64,000 nt of DNA from Calditrichia bacterium. GTDB lineage: Bacteria; Calditrichota; Calditrichia; RBG-13-44-9; J075. Below are positions 21,005-26,018 of the stretch, piece after piece. The position numbers and the translations under genes were made by a program. The first letter of the stretch is position 1; the number at the start of each line of letters is the position of its first letter. The stretch spans positions 55,006 to 119,005 of the forward strand of contig JBOEGD010000002.1 of the NCBI GenBank assembly GCA_050633245.1, in the 5' to 3' direction. Below the pieces are notes generated by a model. It saw only the letters and a list, made by a program, of their open reading frames with translations. It did not search any database and was not told where the DNA came from.

Positions 21005-21090
21005 CGGCCGATTAAGCCAGCCGTGACATTGCTGTAGTAAATCGAAGATAAATTACCAATTAAACAAAAAAAGCAAATCATTTATGTCCC
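21005..21090 (-). repeat. Conserved 3' non-coding tail, copy 1 (IMH/hairpin-like) after the TIR-DUF1566 gene
   Basis: Shares ATGATTTG, ATTTATCTTCGATTTA (16/16) and TGTCACGGCTGGYTTAATCGGCCG with 22413-22497. Confidence 0.75.
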
Positions 21091-21096
21091 CACCAA

Positions 21097-22329
21097 CTAC
21101 ACTCGAGGCAAGTCGGAACGTACGGCACGGACATGCAAGCTGAAACTGGCTACGCGACCGTAAGGGCAGTAGCCGTAGCGGAAACTGACGGTCCATGCCT
21201 TCCCCGCGGTACTATCTCGATCCGCCGTCCAAATCCATCGCTGTGTACTGTCAAACACCGAATCAATGTATAAATCACCATTCTTTCTCTTAGACTCCAT
21301 CAGGCTCATCGCTTCTTCCAGTGTTGGCAAGCGCCAATCTGAATAGCCAGAAAATTTGCTCTCGTTCATATCGGCAACGTATTTTTCAGCTTTAGAATAG
21401 CTCAAATATTTTGCGTACCCCGATTGTTGCCACATCAACCCACTGGCTTTGTCGATAACGATGTCGCCTTTTTCTTCATATGCGTTAACAAATCTTTTCC
21501 TGACTGGATTAAAGTCTGAATCATAAAAACCGTGTTGTTTCAGCATCTGTTTAACAGCATCAACAGACAGTTTGTTTTCTGGTTTAGACCTAAAAACCTT
21601 CACTAATTTTTTGGAAGGAGTTAAAGGAGGGCTTTGATTTTCTCTTGATTTTGCCTCCTTTAAACGCTCTAACTCCAATTGCTTCTGCTTTAACTCTTTT
21701 CGGAGCTTCACGACTTCATCAGACGAAACGCCCTCAGGCACTTTAGCGGAGTCAGGCACAGATTTACTGGCCTCCTGCGGCAAAGCTTCGAGTGCCTCCT
21801 GTTGCTCCTCCAACTTTTCTTTGAGCTGCTTAAATTCCCGATGGTCTTCCAGTGACAGCCCAATATTTTCTGCCTTACTTGGGTTACTTTTATTAACAGA
21901 CTTCGGTAGTTCGGCTTCTCCTAATACACTACGAATGGTCTTGAACGCGAGGTCCAATCCATCCTCCTCAAATAAATCGCAATAGTGTATATCCGCGAAG
22001 GAGTCAGGTACCTTACAATTGTCCAACCTCACCGGGATGATAAACAGTTCACCATCCGGCATCTCCTGCAGTGTATCCAGCGCCAGCTTGAACTCTTTTT
22101 GCACGAATCCCTTATGAGAAACAGAAGTTTTGGAGAAGAAGATTATAACAAAGCGGGCTGATTTCAGCGCTTTCGGTGTCTCAATACGCCAGTTTTGCCC
22201 GGGCAAAAGATCTTTTTTATCCAGCCAGGGATCAAAGCCTTCAACCTTCAGCTTTTTGTACATCTTTAAAGCTTCAGCGTGATCCTCACGCGCGTGGCAA
22301 AGGAATATACGGTTTTTGGAGTTTATCAT
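21097..22329 (-). CDS. TIR_2 - coiled coil - DUF1566 (Lcl C-terminal, C-type-lectin fold) protein
   Basis: IFLCHARED, PWLDKKDLLPGQNW and FVQKEF (catalytic Glu). VIDKASGLMWQQ, GYSDWRLPTLEE and VRAVRS. Confidence 0.88.
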   Translation of the reverse strand: MINSKNRIFLCHAREDHAEALKMYKKLKVEGFDPWLDKKDLLPGQNWRIETPKALKSARFVIIFFSKTSVSHKGFVQKEFKLALDTLQEMPDGELFIIPVRLDNCKVPDSFADIHYCDLFEEDGLDLAFKTIRSVLGEAELPKSVNKSNPSKAENIGLSLEDHREFKQLKEKLEEQQEALEALPQEASKSVPDSAKVPEGVSSDEVVKLRKELKQKQLELERLKEAKSRENQSPPLTPSKKLVKVFRSKPENKLSVDAVKQMLKQHGFYDSDFNPVRKRFVNAYEEKGDIVIDKASGLMWQQSGYAKYLSYSKAEKYVADMNESKFSGYSDWRLPTLEEAMSLMESKRKNGDLYIDSVFDSTQRWIWTADRDSTAGKAWTVSFRYGYCPYGRVASFSLHVRAVRSDLPRV

Positions 22330-22412
22330 AGATAATCATAAGTTTCTTTTGAACGATAGCCAAATAAAAGTGCGTTGTCTAATCTTTTATTTGAGTACTT
22401 CAAACCTCAATA

Positions 22413-22497
22413 CGGCCGATTAAACCAGCCGTGACAACGCAGCAATAAATCGAAGATAAATCATCAAATAATACAAAGAACCAAATCATTAAGGCCC
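22413..22497 (-). repeat. Conserved 3' non-coding tail, copy 2 (IMH/hairpin-like) after the NACHT-DUF1566 gene
   Basis: See copy 1. Hairpin CGGCTGG-tttaa-TCGGCCG on the minus strand. Confidence 0.75.
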
Positions 22498-24573
22498 TGA
22501 GCGTACGGCACGTACATAAATGCTGCTATCGTGCTCAATGATAGGGTTTGCGCAAAATCCGAGATTGAAATCGACGAGCCAGACCGTCTCGGCACTGGTA
22601 CAATCTGCCGTCCAAGTCCACCACTGCAAGTCATTAAAAATCGGATGAATATATAGAGGCAAGCTAACTGGTTCCTGAAGCGAGAGCAATTCCTCTGTGT
22701 CCGGAAGCCGCCAGTCGGCATAACCACCAAACCTATTGCTATTTAATTCAGCAACATATCTCTCCGCATCCGAGTAAGTCAAAGTTTTATCAGAACCGAC
22801 TTGCTGCCACATCAAGCCACTCCAAATATCCAGAATCACTCCATCTTCATTATTACTTTCGAAATAAAAAACTGCTTCGAAAGAATTATTATCAAGCTCA
22901 ACATCCGAGCTCGGTGGACCTATTTGAATATAGCGAAGATTTTTTTTCCTTACCTCTTCAGCACTCAATACCTCTGCAGAAATACCATGATTTAATAAAC
23001 AGGATTCGACCTCTACAAACTCCGAAAAACGCTGCCGAAGAATATCTTTCAGAAAACGCCTCATCTGATCTGTCCAACCAACTCCAGGTCTTTCTCGAGG
23101 CGTCATCTCCAGCCAGCGAACAACATACAAATACTCCACTATGGAGCGGTGGGCAAACTTGAAGCGGTCCAGCGCATCGCGATTGAGCAATGACCGACCA
23201 GTTAACTGCCAAGTATCCAAATTAATATCATATTTTTTAGCAATCTCATCTATTTCAGCAAATAGAAAACCGATGGACTTTCCACCATCACTCTTATCCT
23301 CGTTGTGGAATAACTCAATAGCGAGACATTTGGAGAAACTATAAAGCTCATTACTATCAAAAATTTCACGATTTAGCCAGGCCTTCACAATCACCTCAAA
23401 CAGTTGAAAAGAATAGCGATATTCCTTTTCCTCCTCTACGAGGTCCTGCAAATAAGACAGGATTAACGGTCGACACGTTAAATCCGGAATTTTCTCAATC
23501 AACAGCTTTGCTTTCTCCGCTAGAGAGACATCATCTGGGAAACGCTTATGTAAGTATTCAGATATTTGCCCCTCATCAAAAAGCGATAGATAACTTCTGC
23601 GAAATCTGTAAATTTTTGTGCCGTCAATCCCGCCAACCGGCCCAAATCGCAAGCGGCCCGTCTCGTCTGGCACCTCTTCCTCACGCGGAAAAAATTGGGT
23701 GCGACAGGTAATCACAAATGCGCGAAAGGCATCGGCCCACTTGCAAAGTTGATAGACTCGCTTGCGATGTTGGGGATCTTTTTTGACTGTTACTGGATCC
23801 TTTGACTGGTTTTCAATCTTTATATTGCGTTCCCACGCAGCGCGATCTTCATCGAGTGCATCAAGTAATAAAATGGTTTCGTCTTTATTCTCGATTCCTT
23901 CAACAATCGCTTCCAGATTAAAACGCTCATCATTGCTTATCAGCAGCGGGATTAATATGAATTTATGGTCGGATGCTGCTGTATTCTGCACAGATCGCCA
24001 ATAATAGTTTAACAGAAAAGCCGATTTTCCCATACCACTATCGCCAAGCAACAGAATATGCTTATTGCTGCTTGCAGCATTTTGTAACCAATGATCCATT
24101 TCCTGAAACAACCGTTTTCGCTCAGTTTGGTTTTCCCCAAAAGCAGGATCGATATCCTGACAATCCGGTTTCACATAACAACTGGCAGCTTGTTCAAAAT
24201 CTTCCGGTCTAAAAAACATCTTGGTTACATGATCAACCTTATTTCCATCTATCGGTGAGGACTTCGGATCACCTTTGTCTGTAAGCAGTTTAATTACCCG
24301 GTCAATTTTTTCTTGCTTATCGACGCCGAGCTTTGATTTTATTTCTTCCAGCAGAGCGACTAGAGCCATACGGCTGTCGGGCAGCGTTCCGAAGTTCACC
24401 AGCAGATCGTATAACCGGCTGGAGAACTCATCGGCAGCGCCTTCCAATTCAATCTGTTGCAACATCTTTGGAAAACCAGCAAAGGTATTGTTCACAATCG
24501 TTCTGCGACGATTTTGCAACGAGAACTGTTGCGCGAAGATAGCGATAATTTGGGTTCGGATATCTTGAGTCAT
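22489..24573 (-). CDS. EAD8-like - NACHT (STAND NTPase) - DUF1566 protein (bacterial NLR-like)
   Basis: Walker A GDSGMGKS, Walker B ILLLDALDE, sensor VITCRTQFF, RPLIL and WHD FKFAHRSIVEYL. C-terminal GLMWQQ, GYADWRLP and VRAVRS. N-terminal ~97 aa homologous to the N-terminus of 24624-26018. Confidence 0.88.
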   Translation of the reverse strand: MTQDIRTQIIAIFAQQFSLQNRRRTIVNNTFAGFPKMLQQIELEGAADEFSSRLYDLLVNFGTLPDSRMALVALLEEIKSKLGVDKQEKIDRVIKLLTDKGDPKSSPIDGNKVDHVTKMFFRPEDFEQAASCYVKPDCQDIDPAFGENQTERKRLFQEMDHWLQNAASSNKHILLLGDSGMGKSAFLLNYYWRSVQNTAASDHKFILIPLLISNDERFNLEAIVEGIENKDETILLLDALDEDRAAWERNIKIENQSKDPVTVKKDPQHRKRVYQLCKWADAFRAFVITCRTQFFPREEEVPDETGRLRFGPVGGIDGTKIYRFRRSYLSLFDEGQISEYLHKRFPDDVSLAEKAKLLIEKIPDLTCRPLILSYLQDLVEEEKEYRYSFQLFEVIVKAWLNREIFDSNELYSFSKCLAIELFHNEDKSDGGKSIGFLFAEIDEIAKKYDINLDTWQLTGRSLLNRDALDRFKFAHRSIVEYLYVVRWLEMTPRERPGVGWTDQMRRFLKDILRQRFSEFVEVESCLLNHGISAEVLSAEEVRKKNLRYIQIGPPSSDVELDNNSFEAVFYFESNNEDGVILDIWSGLMWQQVGSDKTLTYSDAERYVAELNSNRFGGYADWRLPDTEELLSLQEPVSLPLYIHPIFNDLQWWTWTADCTSAETVWLVDFNLGFCANPIIEHDSSIYVRAVRSGP

Positions 24574-24623
24574 AGCTATAATCAGTATTATATAAGGTGA
24601 TCCGTTTAAAACGCCAGAAATTT

Positions 24624-26018
24624 CTAACCAGCACCAAGTGCTTTGAATATCTTTTCGATTGCCACGGCTTTATTTCGATAATCCACGTAGTTATAAGACT
24701 CAAAACCAAAGGGGATTTCGCAATCGCCCAGCTTCACCGGGATCAGAAAGATGTCCCCCTCAGGTCGTTCCTGCAAGGCATCGAGTGCAGAACGATAGTT
24801 GCGATGAATTTCTCCGCGTGCAGAAAGCGCCTGTCTGGAAAAAAACACAATTGAGTAATCCGCCTCACGGATGTTTTTACGAACGGTTGGCTGGATGGAT
24901 TGTCCCGGTAGCAGGTCAATTGGCTGATACCAGGGAGAATAGCCTCGCGATTTCAATTCACGGTACATTTCTCTTGCTGCCGCATCGTCAGAAGGGGAGG
25001 CAATGATGGTGACTTTTCGCCCTCCGGCAGGCGCCGCTGAAGCAGGTTGATCCGTTTCGTGTAAATCTTTTGGACGCACGGCCTTGGGTGTCTGCCTGTG
25101 CAATTCATTCTTCAGCTCACTGCTTTCTTTATCGAGCAAAATCGGGAGATCTTTGCCGCTAATCCCTTCCAGCTCAATGGCATTTTTCGCCAGCGCAAAT
25201 GCTTTCGGGATGTCCATACCACCGCCAAGCCCGTCATAAAAAGCTGTTGAGAATAGAATAGCCGCCCGATCCGCAATCGCATCCTTCATTCCAATAACAT
25301 AGGAGATATGCTCTACAACCGCCTTTGCCTGCAGGATGGAATAACATGAATTGAGCACGACACAGTCCACTTGGTCAGAAAGAATGCCAATCAGATTTGC
25401 CAGAGCTTCTGTTTGCACCAGCTTGCTTAATCCGTTATTGTCTTCCAGAAAAATACCGCTCTCCTCGCCGTCAGTGCCATGTCCGGAGAAGTGAATAATA
25501 GTCGGCTCGAAATCCAGCAAGGCTCGACGCAGGTCAACCGGACGCACTGCCCATTGTGAGGTCAGTTCAAATCGTTCCCGATGTTTCGAGCGCTTAAGCC
25601 CCTCAGAAATTTCCCGCACTTCCTCACCAATTCGCAGCCGCATGCTATCCCTTGGATTGGCAGACAGCACCAGAATACGGACTTTGGAGTCCAGTTGTTT
25701 GCTCTCCTTAAACTCAGCTTTAGTATTGATTTGCGAGACAATCTCATCAATTTCGTTTTTCTTTTCACTCCCAACCATGTCCTGAATAGTACGCAGCAAT
25801 TCTTCAAGAGCAGATCTTCCTGAATCAAGGCGACCATAGTTATTCAGAACACTAATTAGGTGAGAGGAAAAATCCATAGGCGGTCCGCTGAAGTCGATCA
25901 TGCCCAGCAAATTTGGATGGTCGGAGAAGGCAGTAGTACAAATAGTGCGACGCTTTTTATCATCGTTGAATTGTTGGGTTAAAATGCTACTGATTCGTCT
26001 TCGGAGTTGAGCGTTCAT
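24624..26018 (-). CDS. EAD8-like - CHAT (caspase-like protease) - TIR-like protein
   Basis: ILVLSANP...LRIGEEVREI, IHFSGHG (His) and VVLNSCYS (Cys). C-terminal TIR fold PWYQPIDLLPGQ...FLIPVKL. Confidence 0.9.
   Translation of the reverse strand: MNAQLRRRISSILTQQFNDDKKRRTICTTAFSDHPNLLGMIDFSGPPMDFSSHLISVLNNYGRLDSGRSALEELLRTIQDMVGSEKKNEIDEIVSQINTKAEFKESKQLDSKVRILVLSANPRDSMRLRIGEEVREISEGLKRSKHRERFELTSQWAVRPVDLRRALLDFEPTIIHFSGHGTDGEESGIFLEDNNGLSKLVQTEALANLIGILSDQVDCVVLNSCYSILQAKAVVEHISYVIGMKDAIADRAAILFSTAFYDGLGGGMDIPKAFALAKNAIELEGISGKDLPILLDKESSELKNELHRQTPKAVRPKDLHETDQPASAAPAGGRKVTIIASPSDDAAAREMYRELKSRGYSPWYQPIDLLPGQSIQPTVRKNIREADYSIVFFSRQALSARGEIHRNYRSALDALQERPEGDIFLIPVKLGDCEIPFGFESYNYVDYRNKAVAIEKIFKALGAG

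What the first reader, a model, noticed from the sequence alone, without database searches (positions are those of the whole stretch)
21097..26018. Three-gene inflammasome-like island: one caspase-like hub wired by two homotypic adaptor pairs to two lectin-fold sensors
Seen: three co-oriented genes. A (24624-26018) is a ~97-aa helical domain, a CHAT protease with intact His (HFSGHG) and Cys (LNSCYS), and a TIR fold. B (22489-24573) carries the same ~97-aa domain (A: RRTICTTAF..FSSHL..L.NYGRLDSGRSAL..LL; B: RRTIVNNTF..FSSRL..L.NFGTLPDSRMAL..LL), an intact NACHT and DUF1566. C (21097-22329) is TIR, coiled coil and DUF1566. So A shares its N-terminal domain with B and its C-terminal domain with C. 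Established: effector-associated domains (EADs) couple sensors to effectors by homotypic contacts in conflict systems of multicellular bacteria; NACHT, TIR and caspase-like domains are the core of NLR immunity; DUF1566 is a C-type-lectin-fold binding domain. Inference: two receptors (NLR-type B and TIR-type C) converge on one protease A, resembling an NLR/TLR-caspase circuit. I do not recognise this dual-adaptor wiring as a named defence system. The EAD8 assignment is by eye.
Basis: partly seen in the sequence, partly recalled or inferred. Interest (0 to 1): 0.92.

Follow-up and report, generated by a model that had tools for sequence, protein, structure and literature searches.

The report
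Defence island with fossil DGR sensors
Three neighbouring bacterial genes look like an anti-invader alarm: a molecular switch and a TIR enzyme both carry a lectin-like sensor that relatives rewrite with a mutagenic retroelement (absent here), and a caspase-like protease is plugged into the switch by a shared adaptor domain; this is a new variation on a described class, not a new kind of system.

Summary
Three co-oriented minus-strand genes encode A = EAD8–CHAT–TIR, B = EAD8–STAND NTPase–Lcl_C(DUF1566) and C = TIR–helical linker–Lcl_C. EAD8 occurs exactly twice in the 6.3-Mb genome, in A and B.

The proposed wiring is only partly supported. A–B fits the published EAD principle (EAD8–STAND–C-lectin sensor plus EAD8–peptidase). 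C's conserved partner is B, not A. In relatives, STAND–Lcl_C genes are followed on the same strand by TIR–Lcl_C genes, with bAvd, a reverse transcriptase and a template repeat beside them. Both Lcl_C ends are variable regions of one diversity-generating retroelement (DGR). A-like CHAT and EAD8 appear in 0 of 80 such loci.

This genome has no RT, Avd or template repeat. B and C still share a unique 85-nt element just past their stop codons.

A's TIR has Asn where 47 of 48 homologous TIRs, and 12 of the 13 TIRs of this subtype in the genome, have the catalytic Glu. A non-catalytic, adaptor-like role for it stays possible but untested.

Verdict: a new variant of a known kind, of moderate interest.

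The parts
24624..26018 (-). Gene A, 464 aa: EAD8-CHAT-TIR effector/adaptor protein
   Evidence: ORF; Pfam EAD8, CHAT, TIR_2 all above cut-off; no full-length orthologue among the listed hits (best non-self covers 43% of A)
25734..26009 (-). A: EAD8 domain (aa 4-95)
   Evidence: Pfam PF19961, 57.4 bits; coordinates checked
25179..25664 (-). A: short CHAT (caspase-like) domain, aa 119-280; His180 at 25479-25481, Cys225 at 25344-25346
   Evidence: Pfam CHAT 42.2 bits; alignment to solved CHAT 8tl0_A keeps GHG and the Cys; coordinates checked
24669..25010 (-). A: TIR domain, aa 337-450, with Asn407 (24798-24800, codon AAC) in place of the catalytic Glu
   Evidence: Pfam TIR_2 60.1 bits. Glu column: only A lacks Glu among the 13 TIRs of this subtype in the genome and among 48 TIRs of A's homologues that cover the column. 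Codon
22489..24573 (-). Gene B, 694 aa: EAD8-STAND NTPase-Lcl_C sensor
   Evidence: ORF; Pfam; family alignment A1
24289..24564 (-). B: EAD8 domain (aa 4-95); it replaces the hydrophobic TM-like N-terminus of the family
   Evidence: Pfam 55.1 bits. 17 of 24 homologues have a TM-like N-terminal segment and B does not. None of the 119 listed non-self homologues carries EAD8
23035..24204 (-). B: STAND NTPase core (aa 124-513); Walker A at 24022-24045, Walker B at 23845-23871
   Evidence: Own STAND HMM; nSTAND3 in 18 of 25 family members, NACHT in 2 of 25; motifs checked
22501..22842 (-). B: Lcl_C/DUF1566 domain (aa 578-691); the VR-equivalent tail (aa 660-694) lies at 22492-22596
   Evidence: Pfam 64.1 bits; the tail aligns to DGR variable regions of relatives on the scaffold W-V-F--G-C...VRAVRS
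21097..22329 (-). Gene C, 410 aa: TIR-helical linker-Lcl_C
   Evidence: ORF; Pfam; alignment with 10 other TIR-Lcl_C proteins
21958..22308 (-). C: TIR domain (aa 8-124) with catalytic Glu79 (22093-22095, GAG)
   Evidence: Pfam TIR_2 91.4 bits; Glu aligns with the QKEL motif of solved TIR 3h16_A; invariant in 11 of 11 TIR-Lcl_C proteins
21640..21852 (-). C: charged helical linker (aa 160-230)
   Evidence: AlphaFold2 helices 160-181 and 203-230, the latter with pLDDT 82-94; longer than in the other TIR-Lcl_C proteins
21118..21462 (-). C: Lcl_C/DUF1566 domain (aa 290-404); the VR-equivalent tail (aa 374-410) lies at 21100-21210
   Evidence: Pfam 80.5 bits; alignment to DGR VRs of relatives
22413..22497 (-). 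Copy 1 of the 85-nt element D1, overlapping B's stop codon and running 3' of it: an ATTTG-rich stretch, then a hairpin
   Evidence: Direct repeat at 80% identity; only two copies in the genome; resembles the post-stop motif of DGR targets in relatives
21005..21089 (-). Copy 2 of the 85-nt element D1, just 3' of C's stop codon

Best explanation
This is a three-gene conflict (anti-invader) module assembled from two layers.

Layer 1, B + C, is a two-target DGR cassette that has lost its retroelement. [quoted passage not shown] C is a TIR NADase (Glu79) with the same kind of sensor. In relatives, both sensor tips are rewritten from one template repeat. Here Avd, RT and TR are absent and the tips are frozen.

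Layer 2 is a lineage-specific graft. B's family normally starts with a membrane-anchor-like segment. In B this is replaced by EAD8, and the upstream gene A supplies EAD8 fused to a caspase-like CHAT protease and a TIR that lacks the catalytic Glu.

Inferred mechanism:
1. A ligand binds B's Lcl_C domain.
2. B oligomerises in an NTP-dependent way and clusters its EAD8 domains.
3. EAD8-EAD8 contacts recruit A, and proximity activates the CHAT protease.
4. In parallel, ligand-driven clustering of C switches on its TIR.
5. The outcome is cell death or dormancy.

A's Glu-less TIR most likely acts as an assembly surface, not as an enzyme.

Shown: domain content, key residues, gene order, the DGR in relatives and its absence here. 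Inferred: every binding and activation step.
For: Domains and residues.

EAD8 pairing:
- EAD8 occurs only in A and B in the genome and is rare in the phylum (2 of 85 other genomes).
- The published EAD principle and EAD8-STAND-CLec plus EAD8-peptidase loci are described in passages read.
- The short CHAT is a standard EAD cargo: EAD8-, EAD10- and EAD11-CHAT proteins.

B-C link:
- Of 23 STAND-Lcl_C loci with at least 3 kb downstream, 10 have a further Lcl_C gene within 5 kb downstream, 6 of them TIR-Lcl_C on the same strand.
- The count is 0 of 24 upstream, and 0 of 33 on each side for STAND loci with other sensors.
- A second Lcl_C protein is the most widely shared neighbour (12 of 35 loci).

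DGR in relatives:
- The intervening genes are bAvd and RVT_1+MutS_I.
- TR/VR pairs have adenine-specific mismatches: L056 16/16 and 14/14; L072 12/12, 14/14, 20/21 and 20/20; L084 12/15 twice; L065 13/14 and 12/14.
- The tails of B and C align to these VRs.

DGR absent here:
- No RVT_1 in a 97%-complete genome, no DGR-type RT or Avd, no TR.
- RT remnants and DGR-less versions exist in relatives (L058, L069, L074, L050, L055).

Other support:
- B and C share a unique 85-nt 3' element.
- B's homologues have TM-like N-termini (17 of 24).
- P0293 = EAD8-TIR-Lcl_C shows that C-type proteins join EAD8 networks elsewhere.
Against: - No orthologous A-B-C trio was found. A, EAD8-bearing B and C have no full-length orthologue in 40 relatives or among the listed database hits, so the three-gene unit rests on one genome.
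- The EAD8 domains of A and B are not each other's nearest: each ranks 4th of about 150 for the other (67.8 bits against 72.0 and 69.7).
- B sits on a long branch (1.87 against a median of 0.38) and its placement has SH-aLRT 89 only, on a quick tree. 'DGR lost' as opposed to 'never had one' is therefore likely but not proven.
- The Lcl_C tree does not join B and C.
- A TIR-Lcl_C paralogue stands alone elsewhere in the genome (C31), so such proteins can work without partners.
- Several of the 80 loci come from the same assemblies, so the counts are not independent.
- There is no expression or binding evidence of any kind.
Confidence: 0.55

Rival explanations
1. Two independent units that happen to be adjacent. 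A+B would be an EAD8-coupled sensor-protease pair. C would be an autonomous single-gene TIR sensor with no functional tie to either.
For: - A TIR-Lcl_C paralogue on contig C31 sits alone among outer-membrane-receptor and kinase genes.
- TIR-Lcl_C genes occur in tandem without a STAND gene in G011:C9.
- The linker+Lcl_C module is fused to many N-terminal domains in relatives.
- The 159-bp B-C gap could hold its own promoter, though the promoter scan is at background (10 found against 9.6 expected).
Against: - The adjacency is directional and specific to Lcl_C-type STAND genes in relatives (10 of 23 downstream, 0 of 24 upstream, 0 of 33 on each side for other sensors).
- Relatives co-diversify both genes from one template repeat.
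- B and C share an 85-nt 3' element found nowhere else in the genome.
Confidence: 0.2
2. A is the hub: its EAD8 binds B and its TIR binds C's TIR, so two lectin-type receptors converge on one protease. This would resemble a MyD88-like adaptor fused to a caspase.
For: - A's TIR alone lacks the catalytic Glu (12 of the 13 TIRs of this subtype in the genome, and 47 of 48 in A's homologues, keep it), as expected for a scaffold TIR.
- It is of the same TIR subtype as C's (E=2e-27).
- P0293 (EAD8-TIR-Lcl_C) shows that C-type proteins are tied to EAD8 networks elsewhere.
- P0004 joins TIR, CHAT and a lectin-fold domain in one chain.
- Proteases carrying two different adaptors exist in relatives (EAD8-EAD2-caspase).
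Against: - The TIRs of A and C are not mutual nearest neighbours: C is 64% identical to another TIR in the genome and 34% to A's.
- TIR_2 has 18 matches in the genome.
- The B-C link needs no A: A-like CHAT and EAD8 are found in 0 of 80 B-family loci.
- The Glu-to-Asn change is seen in a single sequence and could be recent decay.
- No interaction test was done for the TIR pair.
Confidence: 0.12
3. A decaying remnant. After the DGR was lost, the locus is drifting toward loss of function and no longer acts as a system.
For: - The DGR machinery is gone.
- B has an unusually long branch in both trees (1.87 and 1.98).
- A's TIR has lost its catalytic residue.
- No close orthologues of any of the three genes were found.
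Against: - All three reading frames are intact.
- Walker A/B, the CHAT His/Cys and C's Glu79 are intact.
- B keeps the 54 columns that are invariant across the 25-member family alignment.
- Every domain scores well above its Pfam cut-off.
- The non-coding 3' element is kept at 80% identity in both copies.
Confidence: 0.1

Closest known systems
DGR-diversified STAND NTPase conflict loci, e.g. Thiohalocapsa PB-PSB1 DGR6 (Doré et al., bioRxiv 10.1101/2023.09.22.558884; passages read)
   Same: EAD8 on a STAND NTPase with a C-terminal C-type-lectin-fold sensor. The same EAD8 on a nearby peptidase. Two lectin-fold target genes per locus. 'Degenerate' loci that lack DGR machinery are also described.
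   Different: - The lectin domain here is Lcl_C/DUF1566, not FGE-sulfatase.
- The NTPase is nSTAND3-like, not nSTAND1.
- The peptidase is CHAT plus a Glu-less TIR, not trypsin-like.
- The second lectin protein carries TIR, not a second STAND.
- This genome has no RT, Avd or TR.
STAND NTPase-FGS systems with N-terminal EADs or effectors, and the EAD principle (Kaur et al., eLife 2020 PMC7159879 and 2021 PMC8195603; passages read)
   Same: An N-terminal EAD (EAD1/2/7/8 are listed) or a TIR, caspase or trypsin domain on a STAND-lectin-fold sensor. A second EAD copy on an effector in the adjacent gene. Homotypic coupling is proposed.
   Different: The passages seen name FGS, not DUF1566 (0 occurrences of 'DUF1566' in either paper). 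No TIR-lectin partner gene is mentioned in them. The A and B copies are not each other's nearest EAD8. The supplementary tables could not be seen.
STAND-Lcl_C | bAvd | RT(+MutS_I) | TIR-Lcl_C cassettes of MAGs labelled candidate division KSB1 and similar, found here (L056, L065, L072, L084, L108)
   Same: B and C belong to the same two protein families, in the same order and on the same strand. They keep the same VR scaffold at the C-terminus and a similar T-rich motif after the stop codon.
   Different: Relatives have a TM-like N-terminus on the STAND protein instead of EAD8. They have no A-like gene and an active-looking DGR.
Experimentally characterised antiviral STAND proteins (Avs, bNACHT), as cited in the passages
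   Same: The layout is tripartite: an N-terminal effector or adaptor, a STAND NTPase, and a variable C-terminal sensor. Oligomerisation on ligand binding is the accepted mechanism.
   Different: B matches no PADLOC model and only reaches E=0.013 to NCBIfam EruA. Its sensor is a lectin-fold domain, which according to Doré et al. has not been tested experimentally. Its effector is supplied in trans.
Animal MyD88/inflammasome adaptor logic (from general knowledge; analogy only)
   Same: A non-catalytic TIR combined with a small helical homotypic adaptor. A caspase-type protease is activated by induced proximity on an NLR-type oligomer.
   Different: There is no homology of EAD8 to Death-fold domains shown here. 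No binding has been shown. Bacterial TIRs are usually enzymes. This is a functional analogy, not membership.

Membership tests
EAD-coupled conflict system (Kaur et al. 2020) | The same EAD sits on a core NTPase component and on an effector protein | tested here: met
   Pfam EAD8 in A (57.4 bits) and B (55.1 bits); BLASTP E=8e-17
EAD-coupled conflict system (Kaur et al. 2020) | The second copy is encoded by an adjacent gene, and the copies are coupled within the genome | tested here: met
   Same strand with a 50-bp gap; exactly two EAD8 copies in the genome
EAD-coupled conflict system (Kaur et al. 2020) | Adjacent copies are closer to each other than to other copies | tested here: not met
   Each ranks 4th for the other among about 150 EAD8 segments (67.8 bits against best scores of 72.0 and 69.7). 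The margin is small, and only the top 150 cluster representatives were compared
EAD-coupled conflict system (Kaur et al. 2020) | Homotypic physical binding of the two EAD copies | not testable with these tools
   Needs pull-down, two-hybrid or a structure of the pair
Diversity-generating retroelement (DGR) locus | DGR-type reverse transcriptase and accessory protein (Avd) | tested here: not met
   No RVT_1 in the 97%-complete genome. HMMs built from relatives' RT and Avd hit only the genuine MutS. Both are present in relatives
Diversity-generating retroelement (DGR) locus | A template repeat matching the variable region, with adenine-specific mismatches | tested here: not met
   No second copy of the VR-equivalent DNA of B or C anywhere in the genome. 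Met in relatives, e.g. L056 16/16 and 14/14
Diversity-generating retroelement (DGR) locus | Target protein ends in a C-type-lectin-fold VR scaffold | tested here: met
   The tails of B and C align to relatives' VRs and TR-encoded peptide. DUF1566 is a recognised DGR target class (Wu et al. 2018, PMC5758913; passages read)
NACHT/NLR-type STAND NTPase | P-loop NTPase with Walker A and a NACHT-like Walker B (hhhhD[GA]hDE) | tested here: met
   GDSGMGKS and LLLDALDED are present and are family-invariant positions
NACHT/NLR-type STAND NTPase | Match to the Pfam NACHT model | tested here: not met
   B has no NACHT hit at E<=1. In its family NACHT matches 2 of 25 members and nSTAND3 18 of 25. It is best called a STAND NTPase near nSTAND3
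Named anti-phage systems (PADLOC-DB v2, NCBIfam) | Proteins match the models of one named system | tested here: not met
   B has 0 PADLOC hits. A hits generic 'chat' and Argonaute-associated TIR models. C hits generic TIR models. No NCBIfam hit reaches its cut-off
TIR NADase effectors | TIR fold with the catalytic Glu | tested here: met
   Applies to C. Glu79 aligns with the Glu of the solved TIR 3h16_A and is invariant in 11 of 11 TIR-Lcl_C proteins
TIR NADase effectors | TIR fold with the catalytic Glu (protein A) | tested here: not met
   A has Asn407 in that column. 12 of the 13 TIRs of this subtype in the genome, and 47 of 48 in A's homologues, have Glu
Caspase-like CHAT peptidase | His-Cys catalytic dyad in a CHAT/caspase fold | tested here: met
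   Pfam CHAT 42.2 bits; GHG His180 and Cys225 align with the solved CHAT 8tl0_A

The most novel reading that the evidence does not exclude
A is a bacterial MyD88-like bridge fused to a caspase. Its EAD8 docks on the oligomerised STAND sensor B. Its catalytically dead TIR (Asn407) docks on the active TIR of the second lectin sensor C. Two formerly co-diversified receptors would then converge on one protease and one NADase. TIR would serve here as a homotypic adaptor, not an enzyme, in a prokaryote.
Probability: 0.12. Interest if true: 0.8.

Novelty: new variant of a known kind. Interest (0 to 1): 0.45.

Why it matters
- It links two described themes in one locus: EAD-adaptor wiring of STAND sensors to proteases, and DGR-diversified lectin sensors. 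It shows how such systems may be rebuilt: lose the retroelement, swap a membrane anchor for an adaptor, and bolt on a protease.
- The comparative work brought out a recurrent cassette in which a STAND sensor and a TIR enzyme have their lectin tips written from the same template. That implies two effector arms aimed at one ligand. I found no paper holding both 'DUF1566' and 'TIR domain', and STAND-lectin sensors are said to be untested experimentally.
- The frozen, DGR-free version here is a simpler object for bench work than a hypervariable one.
- A's Glu-less TIR offers a concrete test of whether bacterial TIRs can act purely as adaptors.

Tried and rejected
- **Active DGR in this genome: rejected.** There is no template repeat (blastn of the 3' ends of B and C against the genome), no RVT_1 and no DGR-type RT or Avd.
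- **Complex prediction of EAD8(A) with EAD8(B):** no verdict (score 0.02, mark 0.32).
- **Public sequencing runs:** none was listed and no RNA holder was listed.
- **Rfam:** 0 matches in the window.
- **Promoter and terminator scan:** at background (10 against 9.6 and 8 against 7.1), so it says nothing about the operon.
- **Word-indexed search with B's EAD8 region:** found only B itself.
- **Metagenome scan with P0293:** no relative found. P0293 lies on a 1870-bp contig, so its context is unknown.
- **Metagenome scans with EAD8 alignments A5 and A2:** Replaced by a phylum census.
- **Empty-site/synteny test:** uninformative. The thioesterase neighbour has orthologues in 3 of 15 family genomes, and the best orthologue of the other neighbour lies on a different contig.
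- **Lcl_C tree:** unresolved for the window pair (3 of 30 branches supported).
- **STAND tree:** only the quick version finished.
- **AlphaFold2 model of C:** the Lcl_C part has pLDDT below 50, so no fold search was run and the lectin fold rests on the literature.
- **Named-system look-up (PADLOC, NCBIfam):** nothing.
- **Supplementary tables** of the Kaur and Doré papers could not be seen. They may already list STAND-DUF1566 or TIR-DUF1566 architectures.

Full report
**1. Observation**

The three ORFs exist as described on the minus strand: A 24624-26018 (464 aa), B 22489-24573 (694 aa) and C 21097-22329 (410 aa). The gaps are 50 bp and 159 bp.

| Protein | Pfam domains |
|---|---|
| A | EAD8 aa 4-95 (57.4 bits, cut-off 27); CHAT 119-280 (42.2 bits); TIR_2 337-450 (60.1 bits) |
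| B | EAD8 4-95 (55.1 bits); Lcl_C/DUF1566 578-691 (64.1 bits) |
| C | TIR_2 8-124 (91.4 bits); Lcl_C 290-404 (80.5 bits) |

Pairwise BLASTP gives a triangle of shared domains:
- A-B EAD8: 35% over 106 aa, E=8e-17.
- A-C TIR: 38% over 112 aa, E=2e-27.
- B-C Lcl_C: 47% over 117 aa, E=1e-29.

EAD8 occurs exactly twice in the 6.35-Mb, 97%-complete genome, in A and B, and in 0 of 14 control genomes. A's CHAT keeps the GHG His (H180) and the Cys (C225) when aligned to a solved CHAT protein (8tl0_A, E=1e-14).

B's NTPase has intact Walker A and B motifs but does not match Pfam NACHT. Its family matches nSTAND3 in 18 of 25 members and NACHT in 2 of 25.

**2.

C's Glu79 aligns with the Glu of the QKEL motif in the solved TIR 3h16_A. 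In the ungapped A-C alignment the same column is Asn407 in A. Its codon is AAC, at least two changes from a Glu codon.
- Among the 13 TIR domains of this subtype in the genome, 12 have Glu and only A has Asn.
- Among 48 TIR domains of A's database homologues that cover the column, 47 have Glu and only A has Asn.

**3. Is the TIR pair a matched adaptor pair?**

The comparative evidence does not say so.
- C's TIR is 64% identical to a TIR on contig C16, and 48%, 41%, 39% and 36% identical to four others, against 34% to A's.
- A's TIR is 36% to C16 and 34% to C, so it is about equally far from all.
- The genome has 18 TIR_2 matches, 13 CHAT matches and 8 Lcl_C matches. Its TIR proteins have many architectures: TIR-TRADD_N, REC-TIR, tandem TIR.
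- A has no full-length orthologue among the hits listed from 5.8 billion clusters; the best non-self hit covers 43% of it. CHAT+TIR combinations are common there.
- The short CHAT is a routine EAD cargo: EAD8-CHAT P0346, EAD10-CHAT P0022, EAD11-CHAT P0005.

**4. What the A-B pair is**

Passages read in Kaur et al. 2020 (PMC7159879) define EADs as small adaptors present on a core NTPase component and on an effector in the adjacent gene. They list EAD8 among those that recruit effectors.

Kaur et al. 2021 (PMC8195603) describe widespread STAND NTPase-FGS (C-type-lectin-fold) proteins whose N-terminus is EAD1/2/7/8 or an effector such as TIR, caspase or trypsin.

Doré et al. (bioRxiv 10.1101/2023.09.22.558884) describe a locus with EAD8-nSTAND1-CLec targets and a nearby EAD8-trypsin peptidase.

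So A-B is a member of a described kind.

A profile search of 1.84 billion representatives found 1622 EAD8 proteins at E<=0.001. I Pfam-scanned 83 of the 148 non-window hits in the top 150, choosing the longer ones. Among those 83, TIR_2 occurs in 15, NACHT in 12, nSTAND1 in 8 and FGE-sulfatase in 8.

One published criterion is not met. The EAD8 domains of A and B are not mutual nearest neighbours. Each ranks 4th of about 150 for the other (67.8 bits against 72.0 and 69.7).

In the window's phylum, EAD8 is rare: 2 of 85 other genomes. Those two carry multi-adaptor circuits:
- EAD8-EAD2-caspase with EAD2-TIR-AAA_35 and AAA_35-WD40.
- EAD8-TRADD_N-EAD2-TIR-AAA_35 with EAD2-caspase.

A protease wired through two adaptors therefore has precedent, with EADs as the adaptors.

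**5. What the B-C pair is: the main new result**

B's body (aa ~115-694) has many homologues at 36-41% identity. None of the 119 listed non-self hits carries EAD8. Instead, 17 of 24 aligned homologues have a hydrophobic, TM-like N-terminal segment.

I fetched 80 loci of this family and annotated them with HMMs built here.

| Loci | Flank examined | Further Lcl_C gene within 5 kb | TIR-Lcl_C on the same strand |
|---|---|---|---|
| STAND-Lcl_C (36 loci) | downstream, at least 3 kb (23 loci) | 10 | 6 |
| STAND-Lcl_C (36 loci) | upstream, at least 3 kb (24 loci) | 0 | 0 |
| STAND with other sensors (44 loci) | downstream (33 loci) | 0 | 0 |
| STAND with other sensors (44 loci) | upstream (33 loci) | 0 | 0 |

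A-like CHAT and EAD8 were found in 0 of 80 loci. By clustering neighbours, a second Lcl_C protein is the most widely shared one (12 of 35 loci; 14 of its 15 members lie downstream). RT and Avd follow, with 6 loci each.

The genes between the two Lcl_C genes are bAvd and a reverse transcriptase with a MutS_I-like tail. The RT HMM hits 13 of 80 loci, including three short remnants (L058, L069, L074). Avd hits 6 of 80.

TR/VR pairs show the DGR signature, with mismatches falling at TR adenines:

| Locus | Mismatches at TR adenines, per VR |
|---|---|
| L056 | 16/16 (STAND-Lcl_C), 14/14 (TIR-Lcl_C) |
| L084 | 12/15, 12/15 |
| L065 | 13/14, 12/14 |
| L108 | 11/13 |
| L072 (four targets) | 12/12, 14/14, 20/21, 20/20 |

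The TR of L056 encodes an Asn-rich peptide. The C-terminal tails of B (aa 660-694) and C (aa 374-410) align to the VRs on the same scaffold. B-type and C-type genes are therefore co-targets of one DGR in relatives.

Caveat: several loci come from the same assemblies, so the counts are not independent.

**6. The window's version lacks the retroelement**

There is no RVT_1 in the genome and no hit to the relatives' RT or Avd apart from the true MutS. There is no second copy of the VR-equivalent DNA. DGR-less versions also exist in relatives (L050, L055), and Doré et al. describe 'degenerate' loci.

On a quick tree, B is sister (SH-aLRT 89) to a clade of seven that holds L050, L056, L051 and L072, three of them with RT. 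But B's branch is long (1.87 against a median of 0.38), so its place is unsure. RT presence is scattered over the tree (8 changes for 9 rows).

A relic links B and C inside the window. An 85-nt element at 80% identity lies just 3' of both stop codons (21005-21089 and 22413-22497). It occurs only twice in the genome. It holds a T-rich ATTTG motif like the one that follows the stop codons of relatives' DGR targets, then a hairpin. This non-coding flank is better conserved than the adjacent coding DNA, of which only short stretches align (65% over 66 nt and 81% over 27 nt). That fits either constraint on the element or past diversification of the coding tips.

**7. Links between C-type proteins and EAD8 or CHAT elsewhere**

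- P0293 is EAD8-TIR-Lcl_C. Its contig is only 1870 bp, so its context is unknown.
- P0004 is TIR-CHAT-FGE-sulfatase in one chain.

These show that TIR, CHAT and lectin-fold sensors do work together and that C-type proteins can be plugged into EAD8 networks.

**8. Mechanism (inferred)**

1. A ligand binds B's Lcl_C domain.
2. B oligomerises as STAND NTPases do, and clusters its EAD8 domains.
3. EAD8-EAD8 contacts recruit A, and proximity activates the CHAT protease.
4. C is clustered by the same class of ligand and switches on its Glu79 TIR.
5. The cell dies or arrests.

A's Asn407 TIR most likely acts as an assembly surface. None of these steps has been shown. No expression data could be found, and the one complex prediction gave no verdict (listed only as tried).

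**9. Verdict**

The locus is a new variant of a known kind: an EAD8-coupled STAND/lectin sensor with a CHAT effector, built on a DGR-less two-target cassette whose second target is a TIR-lectin protein.

No named system matches it. No paper in the searched library holds both 'DUF1566' and 'TIR domain'. The supplementary tables of the key papers could not be seen.

Noticed in passing
G000:C31:9240-10439 (locus L027): A second TIR-Lcl_C protein (399 aa) stands alone among outer-membrane-receptor and histidine-kinase genes. Its TIR belongs to a different subtype from C's and was not hit by the A/C TIR HMM. The TIR-Lcl_C architecture therefore appears to have arisen more than once.
   Followed up: partly
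G000:C11:252960-262687: A cluster of TIR-containing ORFs within about 10 kb includes a TIR-TRADD_N protein (549 aa). It is probably another adaptor-wired conflict island.
   Followed up: no
G000:C18:58727-60491 (loci L028, L135): A small CHAT ORF (176 aa, minus strand) lies next to a protein that joins Lcl_C and FGE-sulfatase, two lectin-fold domains in one chain.
   Followed up: no
L044 (G010:C87) and L046 (G003:C8): Same-family genomes carry multi-adaptor circuits. One has EAD8-EAD2-caspase, EAD2-TIR-AAA_35 and AAA_35-WD40. The other has EAD8-TRADD_N-EAD2-TIR-AAA_35, AAA_35-WD40 and EAD2-caspase.
   Followed up: partly
L056:10578-12101, L084:10362-11915, L108:10283-11977, L065:3039-4514: The DGR reverse transcriptases of these cassettes carry a C-terminal MutS_I-like domain. 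Wu et al. 2018 noted this feature in only three RTs (passage read).
   Followed up: no
L055, L056, L084, L108, L050 (100 nt after target stop codons): After the T-rich post-stop motif, many DGR targets share a GCGAGCG-repeat element that ends in CCTCGAAAATTTTTT. It is found after both STAND-type and TIR-type targets. Its function is unknown; it could be a terminator or a retrohoming element.
   Followed up: no
window:20849-20976: Three copies of a 23-nt repeat (78-100% identity, spacings 39 and 66 nt), each with short self-complementary ends, lie in the 495-bp gap downstream of C.
   Followed up: no
window:26269-26441: An inverted repeat (26-nt arms, 81% complementary, 121 nt apart) lies in the 450-bp gap upstream of A.
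   Followed up: no
L058:10064-11305, L063:10581-11789, L108:11994-13238: Some second Lcl_C targets have, in place of TIR, an N-terminal region with weak Pfam similarity to nucleoside 2-deoxyribosyltransferase (E from 2e-4 to 8e-3, below the cut-off). This may be a divergent nucleotide-processing effector.
   Followed up: no
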